From: a virus
DNA length: 64,000 nt
Direction: 5' to 3' (one strand)
IMG/VR virus record: IMGVR_UViG_3300045988_132388
A program made the translations under genes and the position numbers. Positions 904-25,876 of this stretch are shown piece after piece. Position 1 is the stretch's first letter, and the number at the start of each line of letters is the position of its first letter. Below the pieces are notes generated by a model. That model made no database searches and was not told the origin of the DNA. It worked only from the letters and a program-made list of their open reading frames with translations.

Positions 904-2589
904 TTAATCCTCACCACGCTTGAAACGCTCAAAAGCTGCCTTACGCTCGACATTGGTCTTGTAAGGTGAAGGGTCAAACTCACGGAGAGTCTGCGTCTTC
1001 ACTCCCTCACCATTACTTTCGGGAGCTGCACCAATCTCCTGCTCCTCGCTCGGCTCGTTGGTGAGCGAAACAATCTGAGCATCCTTGTCAGAAAGGTTCT
1101 GCTCGGCTGTAGCAAGTGCATTCTTGGTGTTCTTCAACTCCTCGTCAGCCTTTGCCTTGCCGTCGTTGAGTGTAGCGATTTCCGCGTTTTTGTTAGCAAT
1201 AGCCTCGGCATGTGTAGCATTGAGAGTTTCGATTTCTTTACTGTGAGCCTCCTTAGCCTCGGCAAGTGCGGTCTCCGCGACTTCCTTTGCTTCGTTGGCT
1301 GCGTCTACCTGTGCGGAGAGTTCGTCGAACTTGCCCTGCAATTCTGCGAGAGCGTTCTCCGCTGTAGTGACTTTCTGCTCGGCATCAGTCACCTTCTGCT
1401 CAGCTTCCTTCATGTGGGCTTCAAGATTGTCAAGAAGCGAGGCGTTCATATACGCGCCCTCTTCCGTAACGGCAATCTCGCCAGCCTGCAATCCGCAAGC
1501 GTTGCAAATAAGAGGATATTTCTCCATATTTATATTGGTGTTTGTGTTTGTTGCTTCCGGTTTCTCTGGCTCCGGCTCGTTCTCAGGCTCGTTCTGTGGA
1601 TCGTCCTCTGGTTCATCTTCCGGCTCGTTCTGTGGCTCAATCGTCTGCTCACGGTTGATAAGTTCAGCTCTACCATCATAAAGGGCAAAAGTGTGTTGAA
1701 CCACCTCCTTAAACGACGACTGACCATCCATAAGAATACCCTTCACGTCCTCGGCATTGAACACCTTGCCATGCAGATGCTCATCGGTGGCGTTAGGGCA
1801 AGCTTTTTTAACGTCGGCACGGAACTCAACGCCAAGTTCGGCAAGCTCCTTGATAAGCTCCTTGTCATCATCCTTGTTAGCAAGGTCGCGGTAAGCCTTA
1901 TTCTTGTCGAACGACTTAGGATCGTAAAGTTCATGATAGGTCTCGTCGGTATACTTGTCTTTAGCTCCATCGGGCAAAGTGTAGAACGCTGCCATCACGC
2001 CGATACAACCTACAATATCTTTCGGATTCATATAATAGCGTTCGTCGCAAAGAGAGGCAAGATACATTCCTGCTGAAGCACACATACCATCAACCAGGGC
2101 TATAACCTTCTGCCCCTTAGAGTGGGCATAGTCGATGGCAAGTGCATAGTCATTCTTTGCCCATGCCGAGCCGCCAGGAGTGTTGATGATGAAAACGTGT
2201 CCACGACAAAGAGGATGATCGGCTACCCGCATCATCATGTCGCGATGGTCTATTGAACCATACGAACAATAGCCACCGTTGCGAGTGATAGGGCCGTCAA
2301 CAGACAATACCGAAACGAACGGGAAGTTCTGTGCCAGCTCGTCGTCGGCGGGAAGATCCAAAGTCCAGTTGCCTCTCACCTGCTTGCCATCCTCTGAAAT
2401 CTGATATTCCTCGGGATAGTAAGTCTTGCCGTCGGCATCCTCCGCGGTAACATATCCACAAGTCTTCTCCGGCTTGCTGAAAGCCGCATGAGTATTCAGA
2501 TTGTGCTCAAGCGACTGACGGATGCCATGCACGAAGTCCGGACTGACCATCCACTTCTTTTCAGTTAGAATTTCGTAAAGTCCTTTCAT
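904..2589 (-). CDS. prohead protease (S49/SppA-ClpP-like) fused to a coiled-coil scaffolding domain
   Basis: 561 aa. The N-terminal half carries serine-protease signatures (VFIINTPGGSAW, ALVDGMCASAGMYLASLCD). An acidic linker (EPQNEPEDEPEDDPQNEPENEPEPEKPE) follows, then a long Ala/Glu/Lys coiled-coil C-terminal half. The gene is immediately upstream of the capsid gene. Confidence 0.85.
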   Translation of the reverse strand: MKGLYEILTEKKWMVSPDFVHGIRQSLEHNLNTHAAFSKPEKTCGYVTAEDADGKTYYPEEYQISEDGKQVRGNWTLDLPADDELAQNFPFVSVLSVDGPITRNGGYCSYGSIDHRDMMMRVADHPLCRGHVFIINTPGGSAWAKNDYALAIDYAHSKGQKVIALVDGMCASAGMYLASLCDERYYMNPKDIVGCIGVMAAFYTLPDGAKDKYTDETYHELYDPKSFDKNKAYRDLANKDDDKELIKELAELGVEFRADVKKACPNATDEHLHGKVFNAEDVKGILMDGQSSFKEVVQHTFALYDGRAELINREQTIEPQNEPEDEPEDDPQNEPENEPEPEKPEATNTNTNINMEKYPLICNACGLQAGEIAVTEEGAYMNASLLDNLEAHMKEAEQKVTDAEQKVTTAENALAELQGKFDELSAQVDAANEAKEVAETALAEAKEAHSKEIETLNATHAEAIANKNAEIATLNDGKAKADEELKNTKNALATAEQNLSDKDAQIVSLTNEPSEEQEIGAAPESNGEGVKTQTLREFDPSPYKTNVERKAAFERFKRGED

Positions 2590-2651
2590 TTAAAATTTTG
2601 TGTTTGTGTTGTTGTTATCCTGAATACAACCTTTTTACCAGTTGCTAAAGT

Positions 2652-2723
2652 TGCGGAGGAGGGACTCGAACCCTCGACCTCCTGGTTATGAGCCAAGCGA
2701 GCTGCCAGCTGCTACTACTCCGC
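2652..2723 (-). tRNA. tRNA-Met-like (anticodon CAT), imperfect
   Basis: The minus strand reads GCGGAGTAGTAGCAGCTGGCAGCTCGCTTGGCTCATAACCAGGAGGTCGAGGGTTCGAGTCCCTCCTCCGCA. The anticodon arm is CTTGG-CTCATAA-CCAGG and the T arm is GAGGG-TTCGAGT-CCCTC. The D loop contains GG. Only 6 clean acceptor base pairs form, the D stem has a T-C mismatch, and no CCA is encoded. Confidence 0.7.
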
Positions 2724-2841
2724 TGTGTTATCCGAATGCAAAAGTAAAAAACATCCTATTAAGGCTTTGGACGAAAAATGCCGTCATCCTCACAGACAAC
2801 GGCACCGGTAGATAAAAAAAAATCAAAAAAAGAAATCAGCT

Positions 2842-3333
2842 TCATCTTACTGTAATCGGAATAAAATCCGACAGCGACTTGCATGAAGTAGTTAGCGACA
2901 TCTGCTCTTCAGTCTGCGAAACATTTGTAGTCGCATTGAAGGAAAAGGTGTTTGGTAACGTGTAACAAAGGTACAACTGCCCGTCTTCACGACGAATCAC
3001 AATATAGCAATCCTCCTCTTCGATAGCTATTTTTCTCTGTGTTTCGCGCACATTTTCCTTTCCGTCAGTGATTGTTGCACTTATTTCTAAAGAAAACAGC
3101 GTTTGGGAACCCATTTTACTGATAGTGGATTTAGCGGTCAAGGTTTCGGCAACCACCAGTGATTTATCCTGTGTGGCTATATGTAGAAGAGCATCGGTAA
3201 AACTACAGTTGTTGATATTCAGTATCTGTGCCACACTGAATGGCACAGGAATACTACTGCTTTTAGTAGGGTAGATGTAAACATCTGTTATTCCTGCAAG
3301 AAAAATCTCTTTGCAATTATCGGGTAAAACCAT
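2842..3333 (-). CDS. hypothetical protein
   Basis: 163-aa ORF co-oriented with its neighbours. No motif recognised. Confidence 0.6.
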   Translation of the reverse strand: MVLPDNCKEIFLAGITDVYIYPTKSSSIPVPFSVAQILNINNCSFTDALLHIATQDKSLVVAETLTAKSTISKMGSQTLFSLEISATITDGKENVRETQRKIAIEEEDCYIVIRREDGQLYLCYTLPNTFSFNATTNVSQTEEQMSLTTSCKSLSDFIPITVR

Positions 3334-3398
3334 ACGTATTATAATTTTGCTTGTTTTTTAATATTATTTTACATTCAATTTAACAATCATAAAGACTT

Positions 3399-4133
3399 TT
3401 AGTCCAACCATTGAAATTCATCAATATGATGACTACGTTCGGAGTCATCCCCATATTTCATGTCAAGACAGGAATACGACCGGAAGAAGTAGTGCTCCGC
3501 CTTGAGCCATCTTTCCACAATCCGGCGCATATTATCCTTCTCTTCCTTCGTGGGGTCTATGCCATAACGCATCAGAAAACGCTCAAGCATGGCAGCTTTG
3601 CTACGGGCTACGATTCTGCCGTTTGCCGTGCAATAGTCAAAGGTGGCAAGCACCCATTCCACTACGCTGCGCTTGAAGTCGTTGTTCAATGATTCAAGGA
3701 GCTTGTACACCCCATGCTTATCAAGATTCCACGTAGGAGTAACCACGCGAACGGTATCTATAACTTCAATCTCGTTGGGCAATTTTATACAGAGAAAGTC
3801 TTCATTGTCGCTCCTGCTGTAATCCTTATACCCATTGAGCTGCTGCACCTCTGCAAAGGTAAGATATTCCGAACTGTCACGCTTTACAACGACATTGCCT
3901 CCGAGAGGGTGTCTACCGTTCATCATGTTGCGCCACTGCTGATGGGAGAAGCACTGTGCGTTCACTTGTTGTGTAACGGCATCCGCATTGGACAGGGAGT
4001 TGCGCATCAGGAAGTGCTCAGGCATGTACATGTTGAATACTACAGGCTCGTTCTTGGCAAGAGTTTTGTTCGGGTCACGGTGGCGAAAATACTGACACCG
4101 GCTCGTAGGTAGACGAAGATAGATGTTAGGCAT
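3399..4133 (-). CDS. hypothetical protein
   Basis: 244-aa ORF ending 12 nt from the next gene. No motif recognised. Confidence 0.65.
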   Translation of the reverse strand: MPNIYLRLPTSRCQYFRHRDPNKTLAKNEPVVFNMYMPEHFLMRNSLSNADAVTQQVNAQCFSHQQWRNMMNGRHPLGGNVVVKRDSSEYLTFAEVQQLNGYKDYSRSDNEDFLCIKLPNEIEVIDTVRVVTPTWNLDKHGVYKLLESLNNDFKRSVVEWVLATFDYCTANGRIVARSKAAMLERFLMRYGIDPTKEEKDNMRRIVERWLKAEHYFFRSYSCLDMKYGDDSERSHHIDEFQWLD

Positions 4134-4144
4134 GAATGAAAAAA

Positions 4145-5101
4145 TTAATGCTTTGTTTCAAAATATGTTTTCATTATCGCCGTAGTTACGGTAAAGGAGT
4201 AGTTAAGGGCATCACGGGCTTCAACCTTGCCTGTTATGCGGTCGATTTTCTTGGCTTTCTCTTCATCGACATTCATGGCAAGAGACATGGTGTCAATATA
4301 TCTGCCGCCAGACTCGGTATGCTTGATAAACGTCTTGGCGATTTTCTTGTCAACATCAAAAATCTTGTGTATGGCTTCCACCATATCCTCTTCCGTGCAG
4401 AAGCGAGACAACGGATGCAGCTTGCGATATTTCGCAGAGTAGGTCTTCAACCGTTTAGTCATATATTCATTGATGGAATCGGAGTAGTCAAGATACAACT
4501 GTGTTTCCGGTCTACAGACATCATCGGGGCGAGAAGACTTGAAGAAACCGCGCAGTTGGGTAAGAACCTGCTGTACGGCATCAAACTGGTTGAACTCTAT
4601 TGCATTACCGAACACGTTGTACATATTCTGCTTTGCGTCTACGAGCAGACCTTCAAGCATATCGGCAAGAAAAACAATCTTGTCAAGGCTACTCACTAAA
4701 GTTTCAACCTTTTCCATAATTCCATCCTTGGAATAATCGACATAATACCTCAGCACATTGCCGAAAGGCAGAAAATCATAGGTTACGTCAGACTGGATAT
4801 TTGACTGCACTAAGACAGAATATATCAAATCAGCCAACCTGCGGTCGCGCTGCTGAATGGCGTTGACAATGGCTGCCATTTGCGTAGTATTCTTTGGTAT
4901 ACGTACCGTTGACCTTACCAGGGCGTTGCGCTTTTCCACGGCTTCAGTAAAATCAGGGTTGGCAAACAGTATTTTTAGTGCCTCGGTATACTTCTGGGCA
5001 GGCACGTCTTTCATATCAAACGTATATAACGTAGGCTGCGCCTTTATTTTCTTTTCTCGAAGCTCGTTGGTCGTCGAGGTAGATTTATTCTTCTTGCTCA
5101 T
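4145..5101 (-). CDS. hypothetical protein
   Basis: 318-aa ORF, tightly packed on the minus strand. No motif recognised. Confidence 0.7.
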   Translation of the reverse strand: MSKKNKSTSTTNELREKKIKAQPTLYTFDMKDVPAQKYTEALKILFANPDFTEAVEKRNALVRSTVRIPKNTTQMAAIVNAIQQRDRRLADLIYSVLVQSNIQSDVTYDFLPFGNVLRYYVDYSKDGIMEKVETLVSSLDKIVFLADMLEGLLVDAKQNMYNVFGNAIEFNQFDAVQQVLTQLRGFFKSSRPDDVCRPETQLYLDYSDSINEYMTKRLKTYSAKYRKLHPLSRFCTEEDMVEAIHKIFDVDKKIAKTFIKHTESGGRYIDTMSLAMNVDEEKAKKIDRITGKVEARDALNYSFTVTTAIMKTYFETKH

Positions 5102-5148
5102 GGTCTATTTTACATAATATGCGTTATTCATAAAACGGACAGCCGCTT

Positions 5149-5541
5149 TTAACGGTTGTCTCCGTTACCGTCAATCAAGCCATGCTGCTGACGCGACTGA
5201 AGCTTTTCGAGGTTCTGCCGGCAGACATCTTCAAGACTGAAACCAAGCACAGAACATACTCCGGCTATCTGCCACATCACGTCGCCACATTTTTTCTCGA
5301 TGTCCTTGATTTCTTCCTCAGTCATGCCATGGAAGGTCTGTGTCAAGATGCGCTCTCCGTTCTTGTCACGATCGCTCGTGCCGATAAACAACTTGCCCTT
5401 GCGGATTGCTTTTGCAAGTTTGGAGTGTAGTTCACCCACCTCTCCGCAGAGATTCATTGTCATGTAGGCGATATTGTTACAAGTAGGCATGCAGGTAGTC
5501 ATTGCCTTCTGCTGATATTCATTCAAAGTAAGATTATCCAT
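5149..5541 (-). CDS. MazG-like nucleoside triphosphate pyrophosphohydrolase
   Basis: 130 aa. It shows the all-alpha MazG pattern: LNEYQQKAMTT, GEVGELHSKLAKAIR, CGDVMWQIAGV and NLEKLQSRQQHG..GNGD. Confidence 0.8.
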   Translation of the reverse strand: MDNLTLNEYQQKAMTTCMPTCNNIAYMTMNLCGEVGELHSKLAKAIRKGKLFIGTSDRDKNGERILTQTFHGMTEEEIKDIEKKCGDVMWQIAGVCSVLGFSLEDVCRQNLEKLQSRQQHGLIDGNGDNR

Positions 5542-5572
5542 AAACTAATTTGCGTTTTATTCAACTTTATGG

Positions 5573-6472
5573 TTATATATCAAAGTCGGGAATATATTCT
5601 CGCATTCTTCCTATTATAATTCCGCGTATCACACCGCACACGTATTTTGCGTTGGGATGTGCCTTGCCGGTAGTCTCATTGAAGCGTAGGTCAATGATAT
5701 GTTTCCACTCATTGAGGTTATAGGTGTAGGCAACCACGGTGTAAGTGTCGAGAGGTAAAATGCCACGTGCGTCCTGCGGTTGCAGTCCGGCTCTCAGCAG
5801 ACGGGTATATATCCATGAGCTGAAGCGGCAAGCTGTCCGGTAGAGGAATCGCTGACGGCGTGTACCAGCATGATACCATTCGGGCTCGGCTATCTGTACT
5901 CCTCCTTTCTTCTCCAGGTTACAGTAACGGGTACTTTGCTCGGCAATAGCGTTGGGGGATGTACGGTTGAGCTCTCGCGAGGTGCTTATCTGTGTGGTGA
6001 CAACGAACGTCATACGCAAGAGCCACAAAGCTGCATTGCATTTGGCTTTCACAGCCCGACGAATAAACTCTTCCTCGTCTATCTGGAACGGCATAAGCAT
6101 GTTCTTCAACTGCTCTTGCTCGCACAAAAACTGCAGATTGGTACTAATCCATACCTTGCTGCCCTTTACGGCATAGGATATATAAGGCGAGGCAACCATC
6201 AAAGACCATACCAGGGTAGTATGCAATTGCTTCTCGTTAGGCACGAAGAAATATGCGGTAGCATGGCGAAACATGGAGCGGTGTCCGCTTTCCCAGAAAC
6301 TCTTGCTACGCAACATGTCGCGCTCATGCAAGAAAGCCTTGCGTTCTTCGCCATCAAGACCTGGATCGGGCAGCTTGCCCTCACTCTTGTAACATATCCT
6401 GCCTACATCGGCGATATGTTGTGCAAAATCTTTCATTGGCCACCAAGCCACAGAGGGATCTATAAATTTCAT
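5573..6472 (-). CDS. ThyX-like (flavin-dependent thymidylate synthase fold) protein with a divergent active-site motif
   Basis: 299 aa. SGHRSMFRH aligns to the ThyX GHETPFEH motif. SRELNRTSPNAIAEQSTRY aligns to RQWFRHRIASYNELSGRY, so RHR is replaced by R-T-S. ARGILPLDTYT...NLNEWKHIIDLR aligns to AR.vLPL....N.R.l..f..LR. Confidence 0.75.
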   Translation of the reverse strand: MKFIDPSVAWWPMKDFAQHIADVGRICYKSEGKLPDPGLDGEERKAFLHERDMLRSKSFWESGHRSMFRHATAYFFVPNEKQLHTTLVWSLMVASPYISYAVKGSKVWISTNLQFLCEQEQLKNMLMPFQIDEEEFIRRAVKAKCNAALWLLRMTFVVTTQISTSRELNRTSPNAIAEQSTRYCNLEKKGGVQIAEPEWYHAGTRRQRFLYRTACRFSSWIYTRLLRAGLQPQDARGILPLDTYTVVAYTYNLNEWKHIIDLRFNETTGKAHPNAKYVCGVIRGIIIGRMREYIPDFDI

Positions 6473-6498
6473 ATATATATGTATCTTTAAGTTTTTTA

Positions 6499-7080
6499 TT
6501 AATCAGTAAAAGTAGACGAGGTTTCGCCAAAGGGACTGAGCTTATCCATGACAAATGGTATAGTACAGACATATTGCGCTACTTTATAGCGTAGGTCTTC
6601 TTTCGACATACCTCCATTGTTAAATATTCTGCGGTCGAATTTAATCCCCATAGCTGCATTCAGACGCTCCACGTCCCGCAATATACGTGAGAGCTTGACA
6701 CCTCTTGCCAAACGTGTTACTGTAGAACTTTTGATATAAAAGGAATATATCTGAATTTCGGGATGACGATCTTTCATGTCTATCAATCCGACTTCATCCA
6801 CAATATAGATAGCTATATCTTTCACCTGATCTACAGTAGCCCAATATTCATAGCCACCATACTGTGTATATGCTAACACCTCATCAGGATCCACATTAAA
6901 CTCTTTTACAAAATGATGCTCTCTGCCTTCCTGTTCTCCTTCACGCATAGGACGTGTGGTATAGGAACAGATAATAGGCCAGTCTGTCATTTCTGACATT
7001 ATCCGAGCTACAGTGTCCTTTCCTGCACCGCTCAGACCGGTAATTGTTATTAGTTTCATATCAATCTTCTTTATATTCAC
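6499..7080 (-). CDS. guanylate-kinase-like dNMP kinase
   Basis: 193 aa. It has the P-loop ITGLSGAGKDT and YTTRPMREGEQEGREHHFV, a GMP-kinase-type motif. The start could instead be the internal Met at 7059, which would remove the 20-nt overlap with the upstream gene. Confidence 0.8.
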   Translation of the reverse strand: MNIKKIDMKLITITGLSGAGKDTVARIMSEMTDWPIICSYTTRPMREGEQEGREHHFVKEFNVDPDEVLAYTQYGGYEYWATVDQVKDIAIYIVDEVGLIDMKDRHPEIQIYSFYIKSSTVTRLARGVKLSRILRDVERLNAAMGIKFDRRIFNNGGMSKEDLRYKVAQYVCTIPFVMDKLSPFGETSSTFTD

Positions 7081-8167
7081 TCAAAAGAGCGTTGCCGCAG
7101 GTTATTCTATCCTCGTCCTCTTCCACAGAAGGAACAAAAACAATCACATCCCAACCTGCCTTGACAAGCGGTTGTTCAAACTGTTTGTAAACATCGTATG
7201 TGTAATATCCCTCCTCAGTCTGAATGCCATTACTTATAGCCTCTTTTGTCTCGTGAATAGGAGTTATCTTTACAATGAACTTTTCCTTATCAAAGAGTTT
7301 GTCCAAAACGGCAGGGTCTAATATCGTGTCTTTAGTGACAGGAAAATTCAACGTGTACTTTCTGCCGACCGGCATAGGTAAATCACGGCAAATCTCTGAG
7401 ATTTCCTGCAAAGTCAAGGATCGACCACGGAACAAATCATTACGCTGCTCTTCATCTGTAGAGTTTATAGACAACTGCAATCCGGCTTCACCTCTAAACT
7501 CGTAGTTCTTGAGTTGACAGAACTCACCAAGAATACGTTTCAGAGTTTTGCTTCCCAAAGAACCCGGAAGCATGGTCGTAAATACAGGATGGATAACATC
7601 TGCATCCATGAATACGTTGACATCATCCCTGAGATAGCACAGCAAATATATCTTGATGTTATTCCAGTTGAATGACGGTTCGCCCATACGAGCCAGATGA
7701 AGGTTGAAACGCTTGGTGTGCTGACACTCCGAACGAACGATAGCCGATATTACTTCTTCTCGCAGATCGCTAACCTTAGCATTACCGTGGAAACCGACTT
7801 TAGGGCAGTCACAGAACTTACATTTCATCGGACATCCTTTTTGAGTGGAAATAGTAACAACCATCTTATCCTCAAGATCTACCTTCTTATGGGTTACACC
7901 ATTAATTTCCTTAGTCAATCCAAGGAAGTCCGCCTTTATGTTGGCTTCCTTGCCATAGTCGCCAACATATAAATATTCAAGACATTTTTTAGTATCACTA
8001 AAAATTGCTCCAGTACGAGTCTTAGATTCTTTAATCATAATAGAAATACATATCGTTTTATTGATATTTTCAATCTTTAATTCAAATGGACGAGAAGTTA
8101 TAAAACGAGGTGAGCCACATTCTTTATACGGCACTTCTGTGATAGTGATGGCGATAGTGATAGCCAC
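7061..8167 (-). CDS. RlmN/Cfr-like radical SAM RNA methyltransferase homologue
   Basis: [36 protein letters not shown] parallels the E. coli RlmN stretch [47 protein letters not shown] parallels MGMGEPLLNLNNV. The C-terminal ITCGNAL parallels AACGQL. The annotated start is GTG at 8167; an ATG at 8038 is an alternative. Confidence 0.75.
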   Translation of the reverse strand: [368 protein letters not shown]

Positions 8168-8190
8168 CGCAGTCGGGTGATAGTGATAGC
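8141..8190. repeat. three copies of GATAGTGAT(G/A)GC
   Basis: Copies lie at 8141-8152, 8153-8164 (in tandem with the first) and 8179-8190. They sit between the tRNA-like RNA and the radical SAM gene. If the GTG start is real they encode AITIAITI; otherwise they lie in the leader. Confidence 0.6.
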
Positions 8191-8204
8191 GAAATAAAAG
8201 ATGT

Positions 8205-8350
8205 TGACTGCGGAGTGATTTTCGCGCAATACTTGCTCTAACCAGCTGAGCTACTTTTCTTCCGAAAAGAAAAGATAGGATTCGAACCTATGACCTCGTG
8301 AGACACGTTTCGGAAAAACGTATGATTCACTAAAAAGAAAACTCCGTATG
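8205..8350 (-). ncRNA. circularly permuted tRNA-like RNA (YrlA/Y-RNA-like topology)
   Basis: The minus strand from 8300 to 8231 reads AGGTC ATAGG-TTCGAAT-CCTAT CTTTTCTT-TTCGG-AAGAAAAG TA GCTC-AGCTGGTTA-GAGC A. In order this gives variable loop, T arm, both acceptor strands closed by a loop, U8-A9, D arm and A26. There is no anticodon arm. The flanks (8337-8346 and 8211-8223) are complementary. Outer boundaries are approximate. Confidence 0.6.
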
Positions 8351-8426
8351 CTATCAGTGTGAGGGTCAGTTTCACGGTACAAAACCTTCAGTCTGACCTT
8401 ACCCACCTCGTATTATATTTTATGTT

Positions 8427-9350
8427 TTACAAACCGTTGACCTCCGCATATATTCCCTGGAGATTATTAGGGATGATAATGCGCAGAGACGTTATCTCTT
8501 TGATTTCTTCCTGTTGCCACTCAACGAACATCGTCTGTAATCTCGACATTTCGGTATCGAAATTGTTTCTCTTTTCTTGATGTTCTGCATACTTCTTCTT
8601 GTATTCAGCCAATCGCTTGCTGTACTCCTTCTCGGCTTCAATGCGGAAACGATGCTCAATACCATTAAACTCAGCTTGCAATGCTCGATATTCGCCCTGA
8701 AGCTGAAAGAAGGTCCTGTTCAGTCGGTCGATGGTACCGGGTTCAACATTATAAGAGAACACGACCATATCGCGGCCTTCACCTTCTATCTCCGTAGGAT
8801 TAGCCAGACGGTGTGACACTCTCTTCAAGGCCAGAGGCAACAGTCCGTCGGGATGAATATACTTACCATACACCGCCATCTTGGTTTTCAACTCAATATA
8901 GCGGTTGCGATCCTTTACGTTCAGAATCTCGTTGCCCACCTTGTCAATATCGGAAACGGGGTCAGGAGCAACCGGCTTTTCAGGAAGAGTAATATTGTGA
9001 TCGTCAGCCCACACCATGAAGTTGCAGTCTTGCACTGACTTCAAACCTTTCTCACGTTCATTGATAGCCTCACGCAGCCAACCGATAAGGGCATTGCACT
9101 GAGCTACGCGACGTATAACATCGGGAATAGCATCAAGGGTGTCAAGAGGGGCTTCCACAATCGACGGCTGTGTATCCCCAAGCAGACGTGCGCTCTTGGT
9201 GTAAAGACGTAAGGTATCAGCCTGCGCTAAGATGCGCTGCGCATACTCTTTAGCCATGTTTGCAACATGGTTAGCAGATGTGGCTGTCAAACCTTCTTTC
9301 GCAAAAAATACTTTGTTCATATATATCGTTTTTTGTTCGTATTTTAACAT
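8427..9350 (-). CDS. hypothetical protein
   Basis: 307-aa ORF. An alternative start exists at the Met 10 codons downstream. No motif recognised. Confidence 0.7.
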   Translation of the reverse strand: MLKYEQKTIYMNKVFFAKEGLTATSANHVANMAKEYAQRILAQADTLRLYTKSARLLGDTQPSIVEAPLDTLDAIPDVIRRVAQCNALIGWLREAINEREKGLKSVQDCNFMVWADDHNITLPEKPVAPDPVSDIDKVGNEILNVKDRNRYIELKTKMAVYGKYIHPDGLLPLALKRVSHRLANPTEIEGEGRDMVVFSYNVEPGTIDRLNRTFFQLQGEYRALQAEFNGIEHRFRIEAEKEYSKRLAEYKKKYAEHQEKRNNFDTEMSRLQTMFVEWQQEEIKEITSLRIIIPNNLQGIYAEVNGL

Positions 9351-9380
9351 TTTAGCAATCAGTAGAGAATCATAAGACCA

Positions 9381-9409
9381 CCGTAAGACATCCGTAAGCT
9401 ATCCGTAAA
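9381..9409 (-). promoter_or_regulatory. three CCGTAA(G/A) boxes at 11-bp spacing upstream of the 8427..9350 gene
   Basis: Boxes lie at 9381-9387, 9392-9398 and 9403-9409. On the coding (minus) strand they read TTACGG(A/T), which shares TACGGAT with the iteron core at 49.2 kb. Confidence 0.4.
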
Positions 9410-9514
9410 GGACGCATAGAAGGTGTTTTTAGTTAAAAATCCTTCCGATTTACTGTGTCTGCAACTGTTCTAAAAAGAAACATCTTACTACATATCTTAA
9501 TCAATTTCGTCACT

Positions 9515-10618
9515 TCAATTCGTTCTTCCATATATTTCCCGCAGTTCTTCACGTGTAAGGAAAATATCACTCTTATGACACATTTTTATGAAAGTGTTTT
9601 CTGTTACTTTCGGATAATTGGCAAACTGCGGCCACATTCTTCTTAACTCCGACTCACGACGAGCATTAGAATCTGGTGGACGGAAACGTGATATACGTCT
9701 CCACATATCCAGTCCTGCCACATGGTCAATGCTATATAAAGAAATGCCACACTTCACCCACTCTTCATAATTACCCATAATGTCAATACCTTTTGCTTCT
9801 ATCTTGCTCACCAAACGCTGAGCCTTGAGGTAAACAATATCGGGAGTATCATCCTCCCAAGAAAATTTGCGGTATCCAGGATTACAACCCGAAGCACCAT
9901 TCGACACGTGCGAAAAGGTTCGATGATAACATGGCGCTGGTGTCAGTTCCACTTCGCTTACATTAAGCCCCTTGTACGCCACGGCACCTTTATTTATATA
10001 TATATGCCCAGGATCATCCCACGAGGCAAAGCGTACACGACCAATATTGCCACACTGTCTGTCGAGCATAATACCGAAAGCAGCATACTCTTTTAGTAGG
10101 GCTTTAAATTGTTCCTTATGTCGGTCCGGATAAGCAAGACGTACTAAGCCGAAACATCCCATACCACTACACGAACGCATCAATAAGGCTATCTCAGGGC
10201 GGAACTGGCAGACCATGCGGATATTCTCGAAATTGCTCAGTTGAGCATTATCTGCCAAGTCAATGTCTATGGCGAGCCATCCGGTATGCTGCTTCAGATG
10301 GGTTTCACGGCGCGACACAGGGGCGATATATTTGCTTCCGTCACGACGAGTACATTCGTCGTTGCGTATCTCAAAGAGTCCGCTCAATGTAGCACCAGGT
10401 AATCGCTTCTTGGTTTTAATATACTCAGGCATTTTCTTTGCCTTGGCTCCATACTCCTGGCGCAGGGCGCGAAGATGCTCCACATACGGCTTCCACCTTT
10501 CCGTCAGACAAAACTCACGGATAGACATCTGCTGAATACACTCCCCTGTCTCTTGGTCTACATATCGACCTACATTGTCAAGTGCGTCAGAATATATGGA
10601 ACATATCTCGTCGAACAT
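9515..10618 (-). CDS. VirE-N/BT4734-like primase-type domain protein
   Basis: 367 aa. TGWLAIDIDL, MRSCSGMGCFGLVRL and GRVRFASWDD resemble the primase-polymerase-like domain common in Bacteroidota mobile elements. The family call is from memory. Confidence 0.55.
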   Translation of the reverse strand: MFDEICSIYSDALDNVGRYVDQETGECIQQMSIREFCLTERWKPYVEHLRALRQEYGAKAKKMPEYIKTKKRLPGATLSGLFEIRNDECTRRDGSKYIAPVSRRETHLKQHTGWLAIDIDLADNAQLSNFENIRMVCQFRPEIALLMRSCSGMGCFGLVRLAYPDRHKEQFKALLKEYAAFGIMLDRQCGNIGRVRFASWDDPGHIYINKGAVAYKGLNVSEVELTPAPCYHRTFSHVSNGASGCNPGYRKFSWEDDTPDIVYLKAQRLVSKIEAKGIDIMGNYEEWVKCGISLYSIDHVAGLDMWRRISRFRPPDSNARRESELRRMWPQFANYPKVTENTFIKMCHKSDIFLTREELREIYGRTN

Positions 10619-10807
10619 ATCTTTTACACTCCTTATTGTTTTCGGTTACAAAATTAAAAAATACATTTCACTCCAACAAACATTTTGTCTTTTTATTTGA
10701 GTGTCACATACTTTTTAACTTTTATAGTTCTATTAGTTAAGGGTTATACCTAATATTAAGCCAAGTAATATTCATAAACATCAGTTTCGCCCCAACCTTT
10801 ATATATA

Positions 10808-10815
10808 TACCTTTG
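10808..10815 (+). promoter_or_regulatory. Bacteroidota-type -7 promoter box TACCTTTG
   Basis: Matches the TAnnTTTG consensus and lies 43 nt upstream of the ATG at 10858, at the head of the plus-strand block. Confidence 0.5.
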
Positions 10816-10857
10816 CCACAAGTCCGATAATGGACGAAACTAAACAACACAAACACT

Positions 10858-11367
10858 ATGCAGATTAAAACGCAAAACGGCGACTATGACGTTGCCAGCA
10901 AGGGACTGGGCAATACAGCTCTCGGTCTCGGCATCGCAGGATTGGCTACCAGTCTGTTAGGCGGTGGTGCAATGCTCGGTGGTCTTGGAAATGGCAAACA
11001 AATGACTGCCAACCCTAACGACCCCGACGCAAGGTTCGTAACCAAGAGCGAGACTAACCTGATCCAGGAGAACTCTACTCTCAAAACGGAACTTGCTATC
11101 CAGAAGAGTGAAAACTACACAGACAAGAAGCTTGTAGAGGTGACACAGTATATCGACACGAAGCTGCGCCGTGTGGAAGACAAGGTTGATGCCAACAAGG
11201 ACGCACAGCAAGCCGTGAACGCACAGCAGATGGCTTACAATGCCGCTGCAAATGCAAACATCGACGTGCTGAAGTCACAGGTGGCAGCACTGAACGGTGT
11301 CACTAAACTCTTTGTACCGTCATCTAATGTCTGTCAGACGGGATGCGGTTGTGGTTGCAACGCATAA
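10858..11367 (+). CDS. hypothetical Gly-rich membrane / coiled-coil protein with a C-terminal CQTGCGCGCNA tail
   Basis: 169 aa. It has a hydrophobic Gly-rich N-terminus (GLGIAGLATSLLGGGAMLGGLG), a coiled-coil middle and a Cys-Gly tail. Confidence 0.7.
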   Translation: MQIKTQNGDYDVASKGLGNTALGLGIAGLATSLLGGGAMLGGLGNGKQMTANPNDPDARFVTKSETNLIQENSTLKTELAIQKSENYTDKKLVEVTQYIDTKLRRVEDKVDANKDAQQAVNAQQMAYNAAANANIDVLKSQVAALNGVTKLFVPSSNVCQTGCGCGCNA

Positions 11368-13397: not shown

Positions 13398-14303
13398 ATG
13401 GAACTACGACATCTACGATCTTTTGTTTATGTGGCGGAAACTCTTTCATTTTCTGTCGCCGCCGACCGATGTTGCGTCACGCAATCGGCAATCAGTCAAC
13501 ACATCAAAACCCTGGAGGAAGAGCTGGGATGCAAACTACTAATTCGTACCTCGCACGACATTACGCTTACAGAATACGGCGAAGCTCTTTTGCCTCGCGC
13601 AAAGGACATACTAAAGCAGACCGCCGACTGTAAAGAACATATACATGCACTAAACAACTGCATGACCGGTGAGTTGCGTATTGGTGTTGGTTCGTTTATC
13701 GCTCCATATATCCGCGAGGCTGCAATCATTTTTATGGAGCGTTACCCTAACGTAAGGCTTAATGCTGAAATGACAAAAGCCACCAGCCTGAACCATCTGT
13801 TACGCAACCACGAACTCGACATAGCGTTCACGATGAACACAGCATATAAGAATGAGGGTATTGAATCTATACCGTGCATACCCTTCCATATCTACGCCAT
13901 AATGCGCAACACCCATCCATTGGCAAAACTGCCGGAGGTGTCATATAAGGATATGCTCTGCCACAGCGTTATTATGCCGGCTGTGGGGGAACGTGTGTTC
14001 AATACCTTTCAGCAATATATGCGACACGACCTTACGAAGCTCAACATCAAGTGTATAGTAAGTGATCCTGACGAAGACCTTGCTATCGTGGAGGAAAAAC
14101 AAAGCATAACTTTTATGCCTAAGCTTTATCTGAAGAACCACCCTACCCTCGTTGCCAAACCTATTGCTGAACTAAAGACAGCCCTTATGAGTAATGCTCA
14201 CTATATGCAGGACGTGCCTCTCAAACGCTCCGCACAGATATTCCTTGACATTATAAGACAAGAAGCAATACCATATATCCAGGAATTGGAGAAAACCTAT
14301 TGA
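13398..14303 (+). CDS. LysR-family transcriptional regulator
   Basis: 301 aa. The N-terminal wHTH signature is MELRHLRSFVYVAETLSFSVAADRCCVTQSAISQHIKTLEEELGCKLLIRT, and a C-terminal effector-binding-size domain follows. Confidence 0.9.
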   Translation: MELRHLRSFVYVAETLSFSVAADRCCVTQSAISQHIKTLEEELGCKLLIRTSHDITLTEYGEALLPRAKDILKQTADCKEHIHALNNCMTGELRIGVGSFIAPYIREAAIIFMERYPNVRLNAEMTKATSLNHLLRNHELDIAFTMNTAYKNEGIESIPCIPFHIYAIMRNTHPLAKLPEVSYKDMLCHSVIMPAVGERVFNTFQQYMRHDLTKLNIKCIVSDPDEDLAIVEEKQSITFMPKLYLKNHPTLVAKPIAELKTALMSNAHYMQDVPLKRSAQIFLDIIRQEAIPYIQELEKTY

Positions 14304-22120: not shown

Positions 22121-22278
22121 TTTTGTGTTGTGTTTTATGTGTTGTTGTTCTGAATTTTATACACAAAGTTACTGATAAACTGCTACGCACAGCGGACATG
22201 GTGGGGTGCGTGGAGATGGGGTATGTCCGTATGGGGAAGAAAGAATATCGTAACTTTGGCTACATAAAACACAACACT

Positions 22279-23082
22279 ATGTCAGGAATTACGCAAAATA
22301 CATTGGCTCGCATCGACAAGTGGCTCTCATACGGCACGAGCATACAGACGGCTTTTCCGAAGCTGGAGCAACGCTACCGTATGGAGGTGTGCTCGGAGTT
22401 CTACAAACGATGGGTGCGAAACAAGGACATCGACCCTCGGACCACCTGCTGCAATATTGCCCGACGCGACTATGAGATGTTCTTCAACCGTGCGGCGCAG
22501 GGCCACAAGGATGCGCAGGAAATGGTGCTTGCGCTGAAGATTACACTCGACGACGAGGGTAATATCCGTCCGCGCACCATTACGGAGCTCAACAACGACG
22601 TGATGGTGTGCAACCACCTGATACGTTTCTTTCAGACCGACGAGAGTCCACGCCACAGGGCTATGTATCTGAGCAGTGCCGAGTGGTTGATACGCACGGG
22701 TAAGCAGCAGAACAACGATCGTGCGGTGGATAAGGGTATGCAAGCCTTAGCTAATGTGTATGGCAACTTCCAGGAGGAGAAGGACGCTACGGACGAGATG
22801 CCGGACATGAGTCGCATTGCCATCACGCAGGACGTGAGTATCGTGAAGCGCGACCGCATCAACTACACCGAGGAGGAGAAGCTGCGCATGGCTCGCAAGT
22901 ATGGTCTCACCACCAAAGACCTGCAGGAGATAGAGGACGACGAGATGTTCGGCGACAAGCGCGAGGAGGAGCCGGACTATTTCGAGTATATGGAAGAGAA
23001 GGACGAGGAGGATGTGATTAGACACGGGTACATGAAAGAAAGCAAATTGACGAATCCTGAGCCAACGAATGATGCGGAATAA
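22279..23082 (+). CDS. hypothetical protein with an acidic C-terminus
   Basis: The ORF-track ORF starts at 22123. The ATG at 22279 (MSGITQNT...) is preceded by the CA-rich leader AAAACACAACACT seen before other genes, so it is the preferred start. Confidence 0.6.
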   Translation: MSGITQNTLARIDKWLSYGTSIQTAFPKLEQRYRMEVCSEFYKRWVRNKDIDPRTTCCNIARRDYEMFFNRAAQGHKDAQEMVLALKITLDDEGNIRPRTITELNNDVMVCNHLIRFFQTDESPRHRAMYLSSAEWLIRTGKQQNNDRAVDKGMQALANVYGNFQEEKDATDEMPDMSRIAITQDVSIVKRDRINYTEEEKLRMARKYGLTTKDLQEIEDDEMFGDKREEEPDYFEYMEEKDEEDVIRHGYMKESKLTNPEPTNDAE

Positions 23083-23105
23083 ACAGAAGATATAAAAGAA
23101 TAGAG

Positions 23106-24161
23106 ATGAAAATAGGACTCATAGACGTGGACGGACGACACGGCAAAAAGAAATGGGGAGCTACGATATACCCTAACGTGGCTCTCGGCAAGATTGCACG
23201 TTGGCACACGAAGTGGGGCGACAAGGTTGAATGGGCTCAGCCTACCAACCTTTTCGACAGGCATCATTACGACATACTGTATGCCAGCAAGGTGTTCAAC
23301 TTTTCGCCCGACATCGACTTTCGACAGTTCTCATTCGGCCGACTGGAGAAGGGTGGCACTGGCTATGACATCTATAAGCGCCTGCCTGACGAGATAGACC
23401 GACTGCAACCGCTATATGAGTTGTTCCCATGGGTACCAAAGAACCATGCTTACGGCAAACTGACCGAAGGCTGTCCCAACAAGTGTTTCTGGTGTGTAGT
23501 GCCAAAGAAGGAAGGACTCATACGCCCGTACATGGATATAGAGGAGATAGCCATCGAGGGCAGAACGCACGTTGTGCTGATGGACAACAACATTCTTGCG
23601 GCGGGCGACTATGCCAAGAAGCAGCTTCAGAAGATAATCGACCTCGGTCTGCATATCGACTTCAATCAGGCGATGGACGCACGGCTTGTCACTCCCGAAT
23701 ATGCCGAGCTGTTAGGCAAGGTGAAATGGATAGACTCCCGCATCCGCTTTGGTTGCGACACCACCGCACAGATTGCAGAATGTGAGCGAGCCATGCAACT
23801 TATCAATGCGGCAGGATTCCGTGGCGAATATTTCCTATATACCATGATAGGCGGAAAGAACGACTTTCGAGAATGTTTCCACCGTCTGCACTACTGGTGG
23901 GAGCGACTGCAACGCTTCCGCAAGAACCATGAAGGCAGAGCCGTGTATGCCTACGCACAACCATACCGCGACCCTACAAATCCCAATCACGCCATCCCCG
24001 AATGGCAGAAGGATATGGCCCGATGGTGCAACAAGCGAATGATATTCTACGCCACCGATTTCAAGGACTTCATGCCAAGAAAAGGATTCAGGTGCGAGGA
24101 ATATCTGAGGGAATACGAAGTGAACGGAAACGGAATCGAGGCATCTACTGCCTGTAGGTGA
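23106..24161 (+). CDS. radical SAM protein with a B12-binding-like N-terminal domain
   Basis: 351 aa. The CxxxCxxC motif GCPNKCFWC follows a Rossmann-like N-terminus (MKIGLIDVDG...). Confidence 0.75.
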   Translation: MKIGLIDVDGRHGKKKWGATIYPNVALGKIARWHTKWGDKVEWAQPTNLFDRHHYDILYASKVFNFSPDIDFRQFSFGRLEKGGTGYDIYKRLPDEIDRLQPLYELFPWVPKNHAYGKLTEGCPNKCFWCVVPKKEGLIRPYMDIEEIAIEGRTHVVLMDNNILAAGDYAKKQLQKIIDLGLHIDFNQAMDARLVTPEYAELLGKVKWIDSRIRFGCDTTAQIAECERAMQLINAAGFRGEYFLYTMIGGKNDFRECFHRLHYWWERLQRFRKNHEGRAVYAYAQPYRDPTNPNHAIPEWQKDMARWCNKRMIFYATDFKDFMPRKGFRCEEYLREYEVNGNGIEASTACR

Positions 24162-24287
24162 TAGGCATCACTTGATGAAGGTAATAGCATTGTTTACATA
24201 CAACAATGGGTATCGCTTTGTATGCAACTTTATAAAGTTACTCCTTGTGAGCTATGGGGCAAGTTTTCATAAAGAAAGGAATGAATT

Positions 24288-24650: not shown

Positions 24651-24655
24651 AAAAT

Positions 24656-25687: not shown

Positions 25688-25820
25688 CCGCTTGACAGAG
25701 GAGCAAGAGAACGAAATAGCGGAGAATATCTACGATTGGTGGATTTCGGGCAAATCATACAAACAATGGTATGCCGAGAAATTCCAACAGATGAAATTTG
25801 ACTTTGGGGAGGAATTATAA
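25548..25820 (+). CDS. possible alternative 3' extension of the PAPS-reductase-like gene (frame +1)
   Basis: 90-aa ORF overlapping the 3' end of 24656..25687. Its frame is open all the way back to the G8 tract. The ending ...EQENEIAENIYDWWISGKSYKQWYAEKF looks protein-like. Confidence 0.3.
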   Translation: MPLRNVRGLLRTQAATSSIQTQNTGWGGRIRGAAMPTPGVSSSSSSDRLTEEQENEIAENIYDWWISGKSYKQWYAEKFQQMKFDFGEEL

Positions 25821-25876
25821 ACAACACAAAACAACACACAATATGAACAACAAACTAAACGGAAAGGAGGTCCACA

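What the first reader, a model, noticed from the sequence alone, without database searches (positions are those of the whole stretch)
5149..7080. MazG-like, divergent ThyX-like and dNMP-kinase-like genes in a row: candidate pyrimidine hypermodification pathway built on a ThyX fold
Three consecutive genes encode an NTP pyrophosphohydrolase, a ThyX-fold protein and a guanylate-kinase-like nucleotide kinase. In the ThyX-fold protein the RHR...S...SxRY nucleotide/flavin motif is altered (R-T-S...A...STRY).

Phages that replace a canonical base typically combine three activities. One destroys the canonical dNTP, one is a thymidylate-synthase-family enzyme that makes the modified dNMP, and one is a dedicated dNMP kinase. 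The characterised hydroxymethylases of this kind are ThyA homologues, so a ThyX-fold enzyme with a remodelled active site in that role would be new.

Two unknown genes (3399-5101) and the RlmN-like gene flank the trio and could add further steps.
Basis: partly seen in the sequence, partly recalled or inferred. Interest (0 to 1): 0.7.

Follow-up and report, generated by a model that had tools for sequence, protein, structure and literature searches.

The report
Phage thymidylate module with variant ThyX
Three neighbouring phage genes (a nucleotide pyrophosphatase, a ThyX-type thymidylate synthase and a nucleotide kinase) most likely just supply thymidine nucleotides, but the ThyX belongs to a large uncharacterised clade, shared with the prototype crAssphage, whose signature flavin-binding motif has been rebuilt.

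Summary
Three consecutive minus-strand genes encode a MazG-like pyrophosphatase (5149-5541), a ThyX-fold protein (5573-6472) and a guanylate-kinase-fold kinase (6499-7080). The ThyX motif reads NRTSPNAIAEQSTRY instead of RHRxxSxxxxSxRY.

The hypermodification reading is not favoured.
- The altered motif is not private to this phage. About 135 of the 150 closest 50%-identity cluster representatives carry R-x-S-P-N, as does gp28 of the prototype crAssphage.
- Every residue that contacts dUMP in solved ThyX/PolB structures is kept. Only flavin-phosphate contacts changed.
- The loss of the second Arg goes strictly with an E-to-R change at the position of T. maritima Glu58 (147 against 6, no mixed states). 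This looks like a relocated positive charge.
- In 80 related viral contigs the kinase-ThyX pair is fixed (79/80). The third slot holds MazG (44), an ordinary dUTPase (9) or nothing (26).
- The RlmN-like radical SAM gene is a rare accessory (3/80).
- No known downstream base-modification enzyme was detected in the window.

Best reading: a dUTP to dUMP to dTMP to dTDP supply module built on an uncharacterised ThyX clade. A hydroxymethylating or otherwise non-canonical product cannot be excluded without biochemistry.

The parts
5149..5541 (-). MazG-like all-alpha nucleoside-triphosphate pyrophosphohydrolase (130 aa). Inferred role: hydrolysis of dUTP (possibly also dCTP or others) to the monophosphate.
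   Evidence: Pfam PF03819 5.5e-9 and phrog_229 4.5e-24. Orthologue present at this slot in 44/80 related contigs, replaced by a PF00692 dUTPase in 9/80 and absent in 26/80. E37, E77 and D87 are conserved in relatives. Substrate not tested.
5573..6472 (-). ThyX-fold protein (299 aa) of the 'R-x-S-P-N' clade. Inferred flavin- and folate-dependent dUMP C5 methylase (thymidylate synthase).
   Evidence: Pfam Thy1 4e-22. AlphaFold2 model pLDDT 94.6. Best solved-structure matches are PolB 4p5a and T. maritima ThyX 1o26 (E about 1e-7, TM 0.4-0.55). Best viral model is a crAss-like ThyX, TM 0.80. 39-40% identical to crAssphage gp28 and cr11_1 ThyX. Below the NCBIfam thyX equivalog cut-off (54.5 against 87.9 bits).
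5924..5977 (-). Remodelled ThyX signature, residues 166-183: RELNRTSPNAIAEQSTRY (canonical R..xRHRxxSxxExSxRY).
   Evidence: Translation. Mapping to T. maritima by hhalign. Conserved as E[LF]NR[VTK]SPN.I.E.STRY in about 135 of 150 cluster representatives.
6263..6286 (-). GHRSMFRH motif, residues 63-70. H64 corresponds to T. maritima His53, S66 to Thr55, and R69 replaces Glu58.
   Evidence: Translation. Alignment A4 with T. maritima, crAss001, DAC15 and DAC16. Position 69 is R whenever position 172 is S/A/G, and E whenever position 172 is R.
6022..6241 (-). Insertion of about 75 residues (roughly residues 78-150) relative to canonical ThyX, forming an extra helical and beta-hairpin subdomain.
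   Evidence: The profile search against solved structures aligns the two flanks to adjacent positions of PBCV-1 ThyX. Secondary structure of the model. Shared with crAss001 and DAC15 long-form ThyX. Boundaries are approximate.
6499..7080 (-). Guanylate-kinase-fold P-loop nucleoside-monophosphate kinase (193 aa) with a re-specified base pocket. Inferred dTMP (or broad dNMP) kinase.
   Evidence: Pfam PF00625 1e-8, phrog_1815 3.2e-27. Far below the guanylate kinase equivalog cut-off (43.6 against 160 bits). Alignments to solved guanylate kinases show EYHF becoming EHHF and LEWAEF becoming LAYTQY. H55, A70 and W80 are invariant in 80 relatives. Adjacent to the ThyX gene in 79/80 related contigs.
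7061..8167 (-). RlmN/Cfr-like radical SAM protein (368 aa). An accessory gene in a variable slot, not part of the conserved module.
   Evidence: phrog_24834 2.7e-98, function unknown. RlmN similarity limited to residues 96-178. Present in 3/80 related contigs and in L004. A 50.6% identical homologue in Bacteroides phage Versailles has no ThyX or kinase nearby.
3399..5101 (-). Two conserved genes of unknown function (244 aa and 318 aa) between the nucleotide module and the head protease. No evidence of a role in nucleotide chemistry.
   Evidence: No family hits apart from a sub-threshold DUF5685 match. Present in 79/80 and 73/80 relatives regardless of MazG, dUTPase or an empty slot. The 318-aa protein is predicted all-helical but the model is poor (pLDDT 61).

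Best explanation
This is a phage thymidine-nucleotide supply module, co-oriented and tightly packed downstream of the primase gene.

1. The MazG-like enzyme hydrolyses dUTP (possibly other dNTPs) to the monophosphate (inferred).
2. The ThyX-fold enzyme binds dUMP with the canonical residue set and transfers the methylene of CH2-tetrahydrofolate through a reduced flavin to C5, giving dTMP. The residue set is shown; the chemistry is inferred.
3. The guanylate-kinase-fold kinase has lost the guanine-reading residues (shown) and phosphorylates the product to the diphosphate (inferred).

The ThyX is not a canonical family member. It belongs to a large clade of Bacteroidales-phage enzymes, including gp28 of the prototype crAssphage. 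In this clade the His and second Arg of the RHR flavin-phosphate motif are replaced by x-S-P-N, and an Arg appears at the position of T. maritima Glu58. I read this as a relocated phosphate-binding arginine: a rebuilt cofactor-binding site, not a new reaction.
For: - **Identity of the genes.** Domain assignments all pass curated cut-offs.
- **Fold.** High-confidence ThyX fold.
- **Nucleotide site intact.** Positions matching T. maritima R74, R78, E86, S88, R90, Y91, R147 and R174 are kept and are (nearly) invariant in the clade. PMC5003785 lists these positions as contacting the phosphate, the ribose O3' and uracil O2/O4.
- **Folate/flavin stacking residue.** His53, which to my knowledge stacks on the folate pterin, is invariant as H64.
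- **What changed.** Only flavin ribityl/pyrophosphate contacts changed (PMC6514825).
- **Strict pairing.** Position 69 is R with 172 = S/A/G in 147 sequences. It is E with 172 = R in 6 sequences, and also in crAss001, DAC15, DAC16 and T. maritima. There are no mixed states.
- **Selection.** The new motif is strongly conserved in about 135 of the top 150 clusters at 50% identity, so it is under selection.
- **Partners point to dUMP.** A canonical dUTPase replaces MazG at the same slot in L004 and in 9/80 viral contigs. A dUTPase also follows a 46%-identical variant ThyX in L096. crAssphage has a dNMP kinase, the variant ThyX and a dUTPase within about 5 kb.
- **Fixed pair.** Kinase-ThyX adjacency in 79/80 contigs.
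- **Nothing downstream.** No other thymidylate synthase and no known downstream base-modification enzyme was recognised in the window.
Against: - No member of this clade has been assayed. I found no paper on it in the held library.
- The protein fails the NCBIfam thyX equivalog cut-off and lacks two of the three residues of the family's signature RHR motif.
- The equivalent of Arg165, another flavin-phosphate contact, is also absent, although it is already absent in RHR-type long-form relatives.
- The 69/172 pairing may reflect a single ancestral event rather than repeated compensation. I could not measure the distance between the two residues because no model coordinates or tetramer model were available.
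- The same gene set (dUTPase or dNTPase, C5-transferase, dedicated kinase) is what a 5-hydroxymethyl-dU phage would carry.
- The variant ThyX is paired with a dedicated kinase in two unrelated phage lineages, with kinases of different families. The RHR-type crAss001 ThyX is not so paired.
- The 80 contigs are close relatives (61-76% identity), so the counts are not independent.
Confidence: 0.6

Rival explanations
1. Base-replacement pathway. The variant ThyX-fold enzyme makes 5-hydroxymethyl-dUMP or another C5-substituted dUMP. It would do so by releasing the exocyclic-methylene intermediate to water or another nucleophile instead of reducing it. The dedicated kinase carries the product toward the triphosphate, and MazG removes competing dTTP/dUTP, so phage DNA carries a modified thymine.
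For: - The family signature is altered in a conserved way and the protein is below the thyX equivalog cut-off.
- A dedicated kinase with a non-guanine pocket is fixed next to it.
- A non-homologous dNMP kinase sits beside the same ThyX variant in crAssphage.
- The variant is the only thymidylate-synthase-like gene recognised in the window.
- A Thy1-family hydroxymethylase has been hypothesised for SP-15 (PMC5977210).
- To my knowledge, 5-hydroxymethyl-dUMP has been trapped from ThyX reaction intermediates on acid quench.
Against: - The changes lie at the flavin phosphate/ribityl site, far from flavin N5 and dUMP C5 where the outcome of the reaction is decided (inference).
- They are paired with a compensating Arg.
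- The pyrophosphatase is missing in 26/80 relatives and is an ordinary dUTPase in 9/80.
- No glycosyltransferase, aGPT-Pplase, 5-hmdU DNA kinase or similar enzyme was detected in the window.
- The radical SAM and the unknown genes do not track with the module.
Confidence: 0.15
2. Still a thymidylate synthase, but with a different cofactor regime. Loss of His79, Arg80 and Arg165 removes the grip on the AMP half of FAD. The clade would then use FMN, or a loosely bound exchangeable flavin, or a different reductant suited to anaerobic gut hosts.
For: - Three of the five residues reported to hydrogen-bond the FAD ribityl/pyrophosphate are gone.
- New invariant residues appear nearby: P173, N174, E255, W256, R69.
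- An inserted subdomain of about 75 residues is specific to the long-form phage enzymes.
Against: There is no direct evidence for any cofactor. The Arg165 equivalent is already missing in RHR-type long-form relatives annotated as FAD-dependent. The relocated Arg could equally restore normal FAD binding.
Confidence: 0.18
3. The ThyX-like protein is catalytically dead, or has been recruited for a non-enzymatic role such as nucleotide sensing or regulation.
For: The signature motif is incomplete, and the score is below the equivalog cut-off.
Against: The entire dUMP-binding set and His53 are invariant over hundreds of diverged sequences. The gene is fixed next to nucleotide-metabolism partners. 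This pattern is typical of an active enzyme.
Confidence: 0.04

Closest known systems
Flavin-dependent thymidylate synthase ThyX (Pfam Thy1 PF02511; T. maritima TM0449, PDB 1O26; M. tuberculosis, PBCV-1)
   Same: Same fold. Same dUMP-binding residues (R74, R78, E86, S88, R90, Y91, R147, R174) and the same His53.
   Different: - RHR becomes R-x-S, followed by an invariant P-N.
- Glu58 becomes Arg.
- The Arg165 equivalent is absent.
- About 75 residues are inserted after the first core strand.
- It scores below the NCBIfam thyX equivalog cut-off.
Prototype crAssphage (Carjivirus communis) gp28 and related Crudevirinae 'flavin-dependent thymidylate synthase' annotations
   Same: Same variant motif (NRVSPNNIAEKSTRY), the same GHxSMFRH with Arg, the same long form, 39-40% identity. 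Neighbours include a dNMP kinase and a dUTPase.
   Different: The genomic backbone differs: the window carries a tape-measure gene and an S49 protease/scaffold gene and is not a crAss-like genome. The kinase is of another family. A zinc-finger gene sits between kinase and ThyX in crAssphage.
PolB, the ThyX-like UMP/dUMP C5-methylase of polyoxin biosynthesis (PDB 4P5A/4P5B)
   Same: Top structural match. It is a precedent for a ThyX-fold enzyme with a shifted function. The nucleotide contacts are the same.
   Different: PolB keeps RHR and binds FAD as ThyX does (PMC5003785). Its specificity change lies in two loops and Tyr99, not in the flavin-phosphate site.
T4- or SPO1-type base-replacement pathways (dCTPase or dUTPase/dTTPase, ThyA-family hydroxymethylase, dNMP kinase)
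   Same: The same three classes of activity encoded together.
   Different: Those hydroxymethylases are ThyA homologues (PMC8989533). Here the pyrophosphatase is optional, no downstream modifying enzyme was detected, and nothing shows a modified base.
Bacillus phage SP-15 gp130 (Thy1-family, hypothesised hydroxymethyluridylate synthase)
   Same: A phage Thy1-family protein proposed to act as a hydroxymethylase (PMC5977210).
   Different: Only a remote structural match to an SP-15 'thymidylate synthetase' entry (UniProt A0A127AWA5; which SP-15 gene was not checked) (E 0.02, TM about 0.3). SP-15 has two Thy1 genes and known hypermodified DNA; this window has one and no such evidence.

Membership tests
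ThyX / flavin-dependent thymidylate synthase | Thy1 domain and ThyX fold | tested here: met
   PF02511 79.4 bits against a cut-off of 24.8. The AF2 model (pLDDT 94.6) matches only ThyX/PolB structures.
ThyX / flavin-dependent thymidylate synthase | Signature motif RHR(X)7S | tested here: not met
   R170-T171-S172 ... S180: the first Arg and the Ser are kept, the His and second Arg are replaced.
ThyX / flavin-dependent thymidylate synthase | NCBIfam TIGR02170 equivalog score | tested here: not met
   54.5 bits against a cut-off of 87.9.
ThyX / flavin-dependent thymidylate synthase | dUMP-binding residues (T. maritima R74, R78, E86, S88, R90, Y91, R147, R174) | tested here: met
   All are present and invariant or nearly so in the clade. 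Their roles are taken from PMC5003785.
ThyX / flavin-dependent thymidylate synthase | Bound FAD, homotetramer, NAD(P)H- and CH2-THF-dependent dTMP formation, thyA complementation | not testable with these tools
   No ligand, multimer or coordinate output was available. No published assay of this clade was found.
Phage base-replacement pathway (T4/SPO1 type) | Obligatory enzyme that removes the canonical dNTP | tested here: inconclusive
   MazG is present here, but its slot holds MazG in 44, dUTPase in 9 and nothing in 26 of 80 relatives. Substrate unknown.
Phage base-replacement pathway (T4/SPO1 type) | Thymidylate-synthase-family enzyme that makes a modified dNMP | not testable with these tools
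   The product cannot be inferred. The residue changes lie at the flavin-phosphate site, not at the reaction centre.
Phage base-replacement pathway (T4/SPO1 type) | Downstream modifying enzymes (glycosyltransferase, aGPT-Pplase, 5-hmdU DNA kinase and the like) | tested here: not met
   None was recognised among about 50 window ORFs scanned with Pfam, PHROGs and PADLOC. Many ORFs have no family at all, so an unknown enzyme is not excluded.
Phage base-replacement pathway (T4/SPO1 type) | Non-canonical base in virion DNA | not testable with these tools
   Needs LC-MS or restriction analysis of phage DNA.
Guanylate kinase | Guanylate_kin fold with P-loop and the TTRxxRxGE motif | tested here: met
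   PF00625 35.5 bits against 25.2. G20, K21, T41, T42, R43, R46 and E49 are invariant.
Guanylate kinase | Guanine-reading residues (yeast Glu69 and Ser80; roles from my own knowledge) and the equivalog score | tested here: not met
   Glu69 corresponds to A70 (invariant) and Tyr50 to H55 (invariant). Position 81, taken as the Ser80 equivalent by my own register (no alignment here reaches it), is Ala in the window and Thr in 78 of 80 relatives. TIGR03263 scores 43.6 against a cut-off of 160.
MazG all-alpha NTP pyrophosphohydrolase | MazG domain with conserved acidic residues | tested here: met
   PF03819 36.6 bits against 22. E37, E77 and D87 are conserved in relatives. Specificity not testable.
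RlmN/Cfr radical SAM methyltransferase (neighbouring gene 7061-8167) | CxxxCxxC cluster, the two mechanistic cysteines (E. coli C118 and C355), and the equivalog score | tested here: not met
   The cluster motif CPMKCKFC is present. Thr lies at the position aligned to C118. A C-terminal ITCGNA may match the C355 region, but this was judged by eye only. TIGR00048 scores 41.7 against a cut-off of 290.

The most novel reading that the evidence does not exclude
The R-x-S-P-N clade of ThyX-fold enzymes is carried by this phage group and by the prototype crAssphage. On this reading it is not a thymidylate synthase. It would be a flavin-dependent dUMP C5-transferase that releases 5-hydroxymethyl-dUMP or another C5-substituted product. 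The co-inherited dedicated kinase would channel that product into DNA. Some of the most abundant human-gut phages would then carry a non-canonical thymine made on a ThyX fold.
Probability: 0.12. Interest if true: 0.85.

Novelty: new variant of a known kind. Interest (0 to 1): 0.4.

Why it matters
RHR is treated as the defining, flavin-binding signature of ThyX and is a reference point for inhibitor design. Here a large, strongly conserved clade lacks two of its three residues and carries a paired Glu58-to-Arg change. It is the only thymidylate-synthase-like gene recognised in this phage group, and the only one annotated in the crAssphage stretch examined.

If the clade is an ordinary thymidylate synthase, it shows an alternative solution for holding the flavin, and genome annotations can stand. 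If it is not, the DNA chemistry of very abundant gut phages would need revisiting.

Either way the question is cheap to settle: one expression construct, a flavin analysis and a product assay.

Tried and rejected
- **Near-identical DNA search.** Window 3000-10700 against the phage collection: no match. No cultured close relative could be used.
- **Literature.** No paper in the held library discusses the crAssphage ThyX motif, a flavin-dependent hydroxymethylase in phages, or the role of T. maritima Glu58. The only relevant hint was the SP-15 hypothesis.
- **Cytosine substrate idea.** I considered that the Gln75-to-Glu change (E167) might switch the base from uracil to cytosine, by analogy with Asn-to-Asp in ThyA-family dCMP hydroxymethylases. 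I rejected it for three reasons:
  - The position contacts the phosphate in PolB.
  - The uracil O2/O4 arginines are kept.
  - RHR-type relatives also have Glu there.
- **Radical SAM as a pathway step.** First judged absent from all relatives from Pfam labels alone. This was corrected by tblastn: it is present in L004. It is still rare (3/80) and occurs without ThyX in phage Versailles.
- **318-aa unknown protein.** Structure prediction gave a poor model (pLDDT 61, pTM 0.32), so no fold search was run on it.
- **Promoter and terminator scan** of 2500-10900: counts no higher than in shuffles, and sigma-70 consensus is not appropriate for Bacteroidota in any case.
- **PADLOC scan** of the module genes: nothing.
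Full report
**1. What is there**

Positions 904-10618 carry a run of minus-strand genes:
- a primase-like gene (9515-10618; BT4734-like N domain plus PriCT_2);
- an unknown 307-aa gene;
- a radical SAM gene (7061-8167);
- a guanylate-kinase-fold gene (6499-7080);
- a Thy1/ThyX gene (5573-6472);
- a MazG gene (5149-5541);
- two unknown genes (4145-5101 and 3399-4133) and a 163-aa gene;
- a tRNA-Met (2650-2724);
- an S49 head protease/scaffold gene (904-2589).

The three genes of the finding pass Pfam's curated cut-offs and have matching PHROG families. They are separated by 31 and 26 bases. The kinase start overlaps the end of the radical SAM gene by 20 bases.

The window as a whole is a tailed-phage genome. 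It has a tape measure gene, a weak terminase-like match (27552-29546, E 2e-4), a holin, clamp, exonuclease, NAD ligase, ParA and DNA methyltransferases. Its relatives come from gut metagenomes, and one homologue is labelled Parabacteroides.

**2. The ThyX-fold protein**

- An AlphaFold2 model built on 66 homologues is confident (pLDDT 94.6, pTM 0.91).
- Against solved structures it matches only PolB and ThyX entries (E about 1e-7, TM 0.4-0.55).
- Against viral models the best match is a crAss-like ThyX (TM 0.80).
- It is about 75 residues longer than canonical ThyX, because of an insertion after the first core strand.

I checked the T. maritima sequence that I used against PDB 1KQ4/1O26. I then aligned it to the family profile. 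The mapping is below.

| Window residue | T. maritima residue | State |
|---|---|---|
| R166 | R74 | kept |
| E167 | Q75 | changed |
| R170 | R78 | kept |
| T171 | H79 | changed |
| S172 | R80 | changed |
| E178 | E86 | kept |
| S180 | S88 | kept |
| R182 | R90 | kept |
| Y183 | Y91 | kept |
| R236 | R147 | kept |
| N254 | R165 | changed |
| R263 | R174 | kept |

The PolB paper (PMC5003785) assigns the equivalents of R74, R78, E86, S88, R90, R147 and R174 to the phosphate, the ribose O3' and uracil O2/O4. All of these are kept.

A review of FDTS structures (PMC6514825) assigns the RHR residues, a Ser/Thr (T. maritima Thr55) and Arg165 to hydrogen bonds with the FAD AMP-phosphate, ribityl and FMN-phosphate. 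Of these, His79, Arg80 and Arg165 are replaced. Arg78 and the Ser (S66) are kept.

So the nucleotide site is intact, and the change is confined to the grip on the flavin's phosphates.

**3. The change is clade-wide and paired**

- A full HMMER search of 1.84 billion cluster representatives gave 3243 hits at E up to 0.001.
- Among the best 150, about 135 carry E[LF]NR[VTK]SPN.I.E.STRY and only 6 carry RHR.
- The prototype crAssphage gp28 and cr11_1 have the same variant (NRVSPNNIAEKSTRY). crAss001 gp54 and DAC15 keep RHR.

In the upstream motif GHxSxF[E/R]H, the residue matching T. maritima Glu58 behaves as follows:
- It is Arg in every sequence whose position 172 is Ser, Ala or Gly (145 + 1 + 1 by pattern matching).
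- It is Glu in every sequence whose position 172 is Arg (6 sequences, plus crAss001, DAC15, DAC16 and T. maritima).
- No mixed state was seen.
- Intermediate forms (R-H-S, R-H-A, R-V-G) all have Arg69.

The Arg165 equivalent is already missing in the RHR-type long-form enzymes, so that loss is older and unrelated.

I interpret the pairing as a relocation of a phosphate-binding guanidinium within one site. That favours retained cofactor binding. Two caveats apply. The pairing could stem from one ancestral event, and I could not measure the 69-172 distance because no coordinates are returned.

**4. Partners and context**

I searched IMG/VR with the family alignment and obtained 80 loci with ThyX 61-76% identical to the window's. 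I scored their neighbours by tblastn.

| Gene next to ThyX in the 80 loci | Count |
|---|---|
| Kinase immediately upstream | 79 |
| 244-aa unknown gene | 79 |
| 318-aa unknown gene | 73 |
| Head protease | 79 |
| Slot after ThyX: MazG | 44 |
| Slot after ThyX: PF00692 dUTPase | 9 |
| Slot after ThyX: no gene | 26 |
| Radical SAM | 3 |

Further context:
- Contig look-ups show the same picture.
- A 46%-identical variant ThyX in another contig is also followed by a dUTPase.
- crAssphage has a dNMP kinase two genes upstream and a dUTPase about 3 kb downstream.
- The closest cultured homologue of the radical SAM protein (Bacteroides phage Versailles, 50.6%) sits among recombination and replication genes, with no ThyX, kinase or MazG.

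The kinase keeps the P-loop and the TTRxxRxGE phosphate motif. It has invariant His, Ala and Trp where guanylate kinases have Tyr50, Glu69 and Gly79. It is therefore not a guanylate kinase by specificity. The roles of those yeast residues come from my own knowledge.

**5. Interpretation**

The interchange of MazG with a canonical dUTPase, and the frequent absence of either, identifies dUMP supply and dUTP sanitation as the likely role of the third gene. It also shows that this gene is not an obligatory dNTP-exclusion step.

The ThyX-fold enzyme has everything needed to bind dUMP. It also keeps the His that, to my knowledge, stacks on the folate pterin. Its changes lie away from flavin N5 and dUMP C5, where methyl or hydroxymethyl would be decided (inference).

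The most economical reading is a dUTP to dUMP to dTMP to dTDP module built on an uncharacterised ThyX clade (confidence about 0.6).

A modified-base pathway (about 0.15) stays open because:
- no member has been assayed;
- the gene set is what a 5-hm-dU phage would need;
- a dedicated kinase is co-inherited with this ThyX variant in two unrelated lineages.

A third possibility is the same product with a different flavin regime (about 0.18). A dead enzyme is unlikely given the conservation.

**6. Flanking genes**

The two unknown genes are core genes of this phage group, independent of what sits in the third slot. They have no family hits. The 318-aa protein is predicted all-helical with low confidence. 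Nothing links them to nucleotide chemistry.

The radical SAM protein is RlmN-like only around the cluster motif. It has Thr at the position aligned to RlmN Cys118. It is a sporadic accessory gene.

**7. Novelty and score**

The gene trio is ordinary phage nucleotide metabolism. The finding of note is the ThyX clade itself. It is annotated everywhere as a flavin-dependent thymidylate synthase, yet it lacks two thirds of the family's signature motif and carries a strictly paired substitution. I found no discussion of this in the held literature.

It is a new variant of a known kind. The idea of a Thy1-family hydroxymethylase is not new (SP-15). Interest 0.4: a specialist would be mildly to moderately surprised, and the decisive experiments are simple.

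Noticed in passing
window 22123-27263 (+), just upstream of the terminase-like gene 27552-29546 (weak match, E 2e-4): A block of an unknown 319-aa gene, a second radical SAM gene (23106-24161, phrog_9298, 4e-85), a 120-aa gene, a PAPS-reductase-like gene (24656-25687, PF01507 8e-17, with a BrxP-like stretch) and two DNA methyltransferases (25877-26470, 26493-27263). This is a more plausible place than the ThyX trio to look for unusual DNA modification in this phage.
   Followed up: partly
window 7061-8167 (-): RlmN/Cfr-like radical SAM protein with the CPMKCKFC cluster motif. It has Thr where RlmN has the resolving Cys118, and a C-terminal ITCGNA that may correspond to the methyl-carrying Cys region. 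It occurs in 3/80 related contigs, in L004, and in Bacteroides phage Versailles in an unrelated context. Its target is unknown.
   Followed up: partly
slot between the primase and kinase genes: window 7061-9350; L007 2789-3373; L011 6213-7106: This slot is a variable region. It holds the radical SAM gene plus a 307-aa gene here, an N6/N4 methyltransferase-like gene in L007, and only the 307-aa gene in L011. L011 also has a 23-residue remnant of the radical SAM C-terminus just upstream of the kinase.
   Followed up: partly
L001 5989-6858 (Carjivirus communis gp28) and L002 5989-6873 (cr11_1): The prototype crAssphage 'flavin-dependent thymidylate synthase' has the same non-RHR motif (NRVSPN...STRY) and the Glu58-to-Arg change. 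crAss001 gp54 and DAC15 keep RHR and Glu.
   Followed up: yes
L015 2965-3777 (Bacteroides phage DAC16): This ThyX homologue has R-N-R followed by a three-residue insertion (RNRGEEG) instead of RHR, and keeps Glu at the Glu58 position. It is another departure from the signature motif.
   Followed up: no
window 5149-5541 (-): At the position where I expect MazG proteins to have the second acidic motif (EExGD, from my own knowledge), this protein reads KKCGD. Position 82 is Leu in most relatives. E77 and D87 are conserved and may supply the metal ligands instead.
   Followed up: partly
window 13398-14303 (+) and 50046-50921 (-): A LysR-family regulator is conserved in relative L004, and a ParA-like partition protein lies inside the phage genome. 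This may indicate a plasmid-like prophage lifestyle.
   Followed up: no
window 39781-43470 (-): A 1229-aa ORF in the replication region has no Pfam hit and only a weak hit to a PHROG of unknown function. No DNA polymerase was recognised in the window, although a clamp, an exonuclease and a ligase are present.
   Followed up: no
window 2650-2724 (-): A tRNA-Met (CAT) gene lies between the head protease gene and the 163-aa gene.
   Followed up: no
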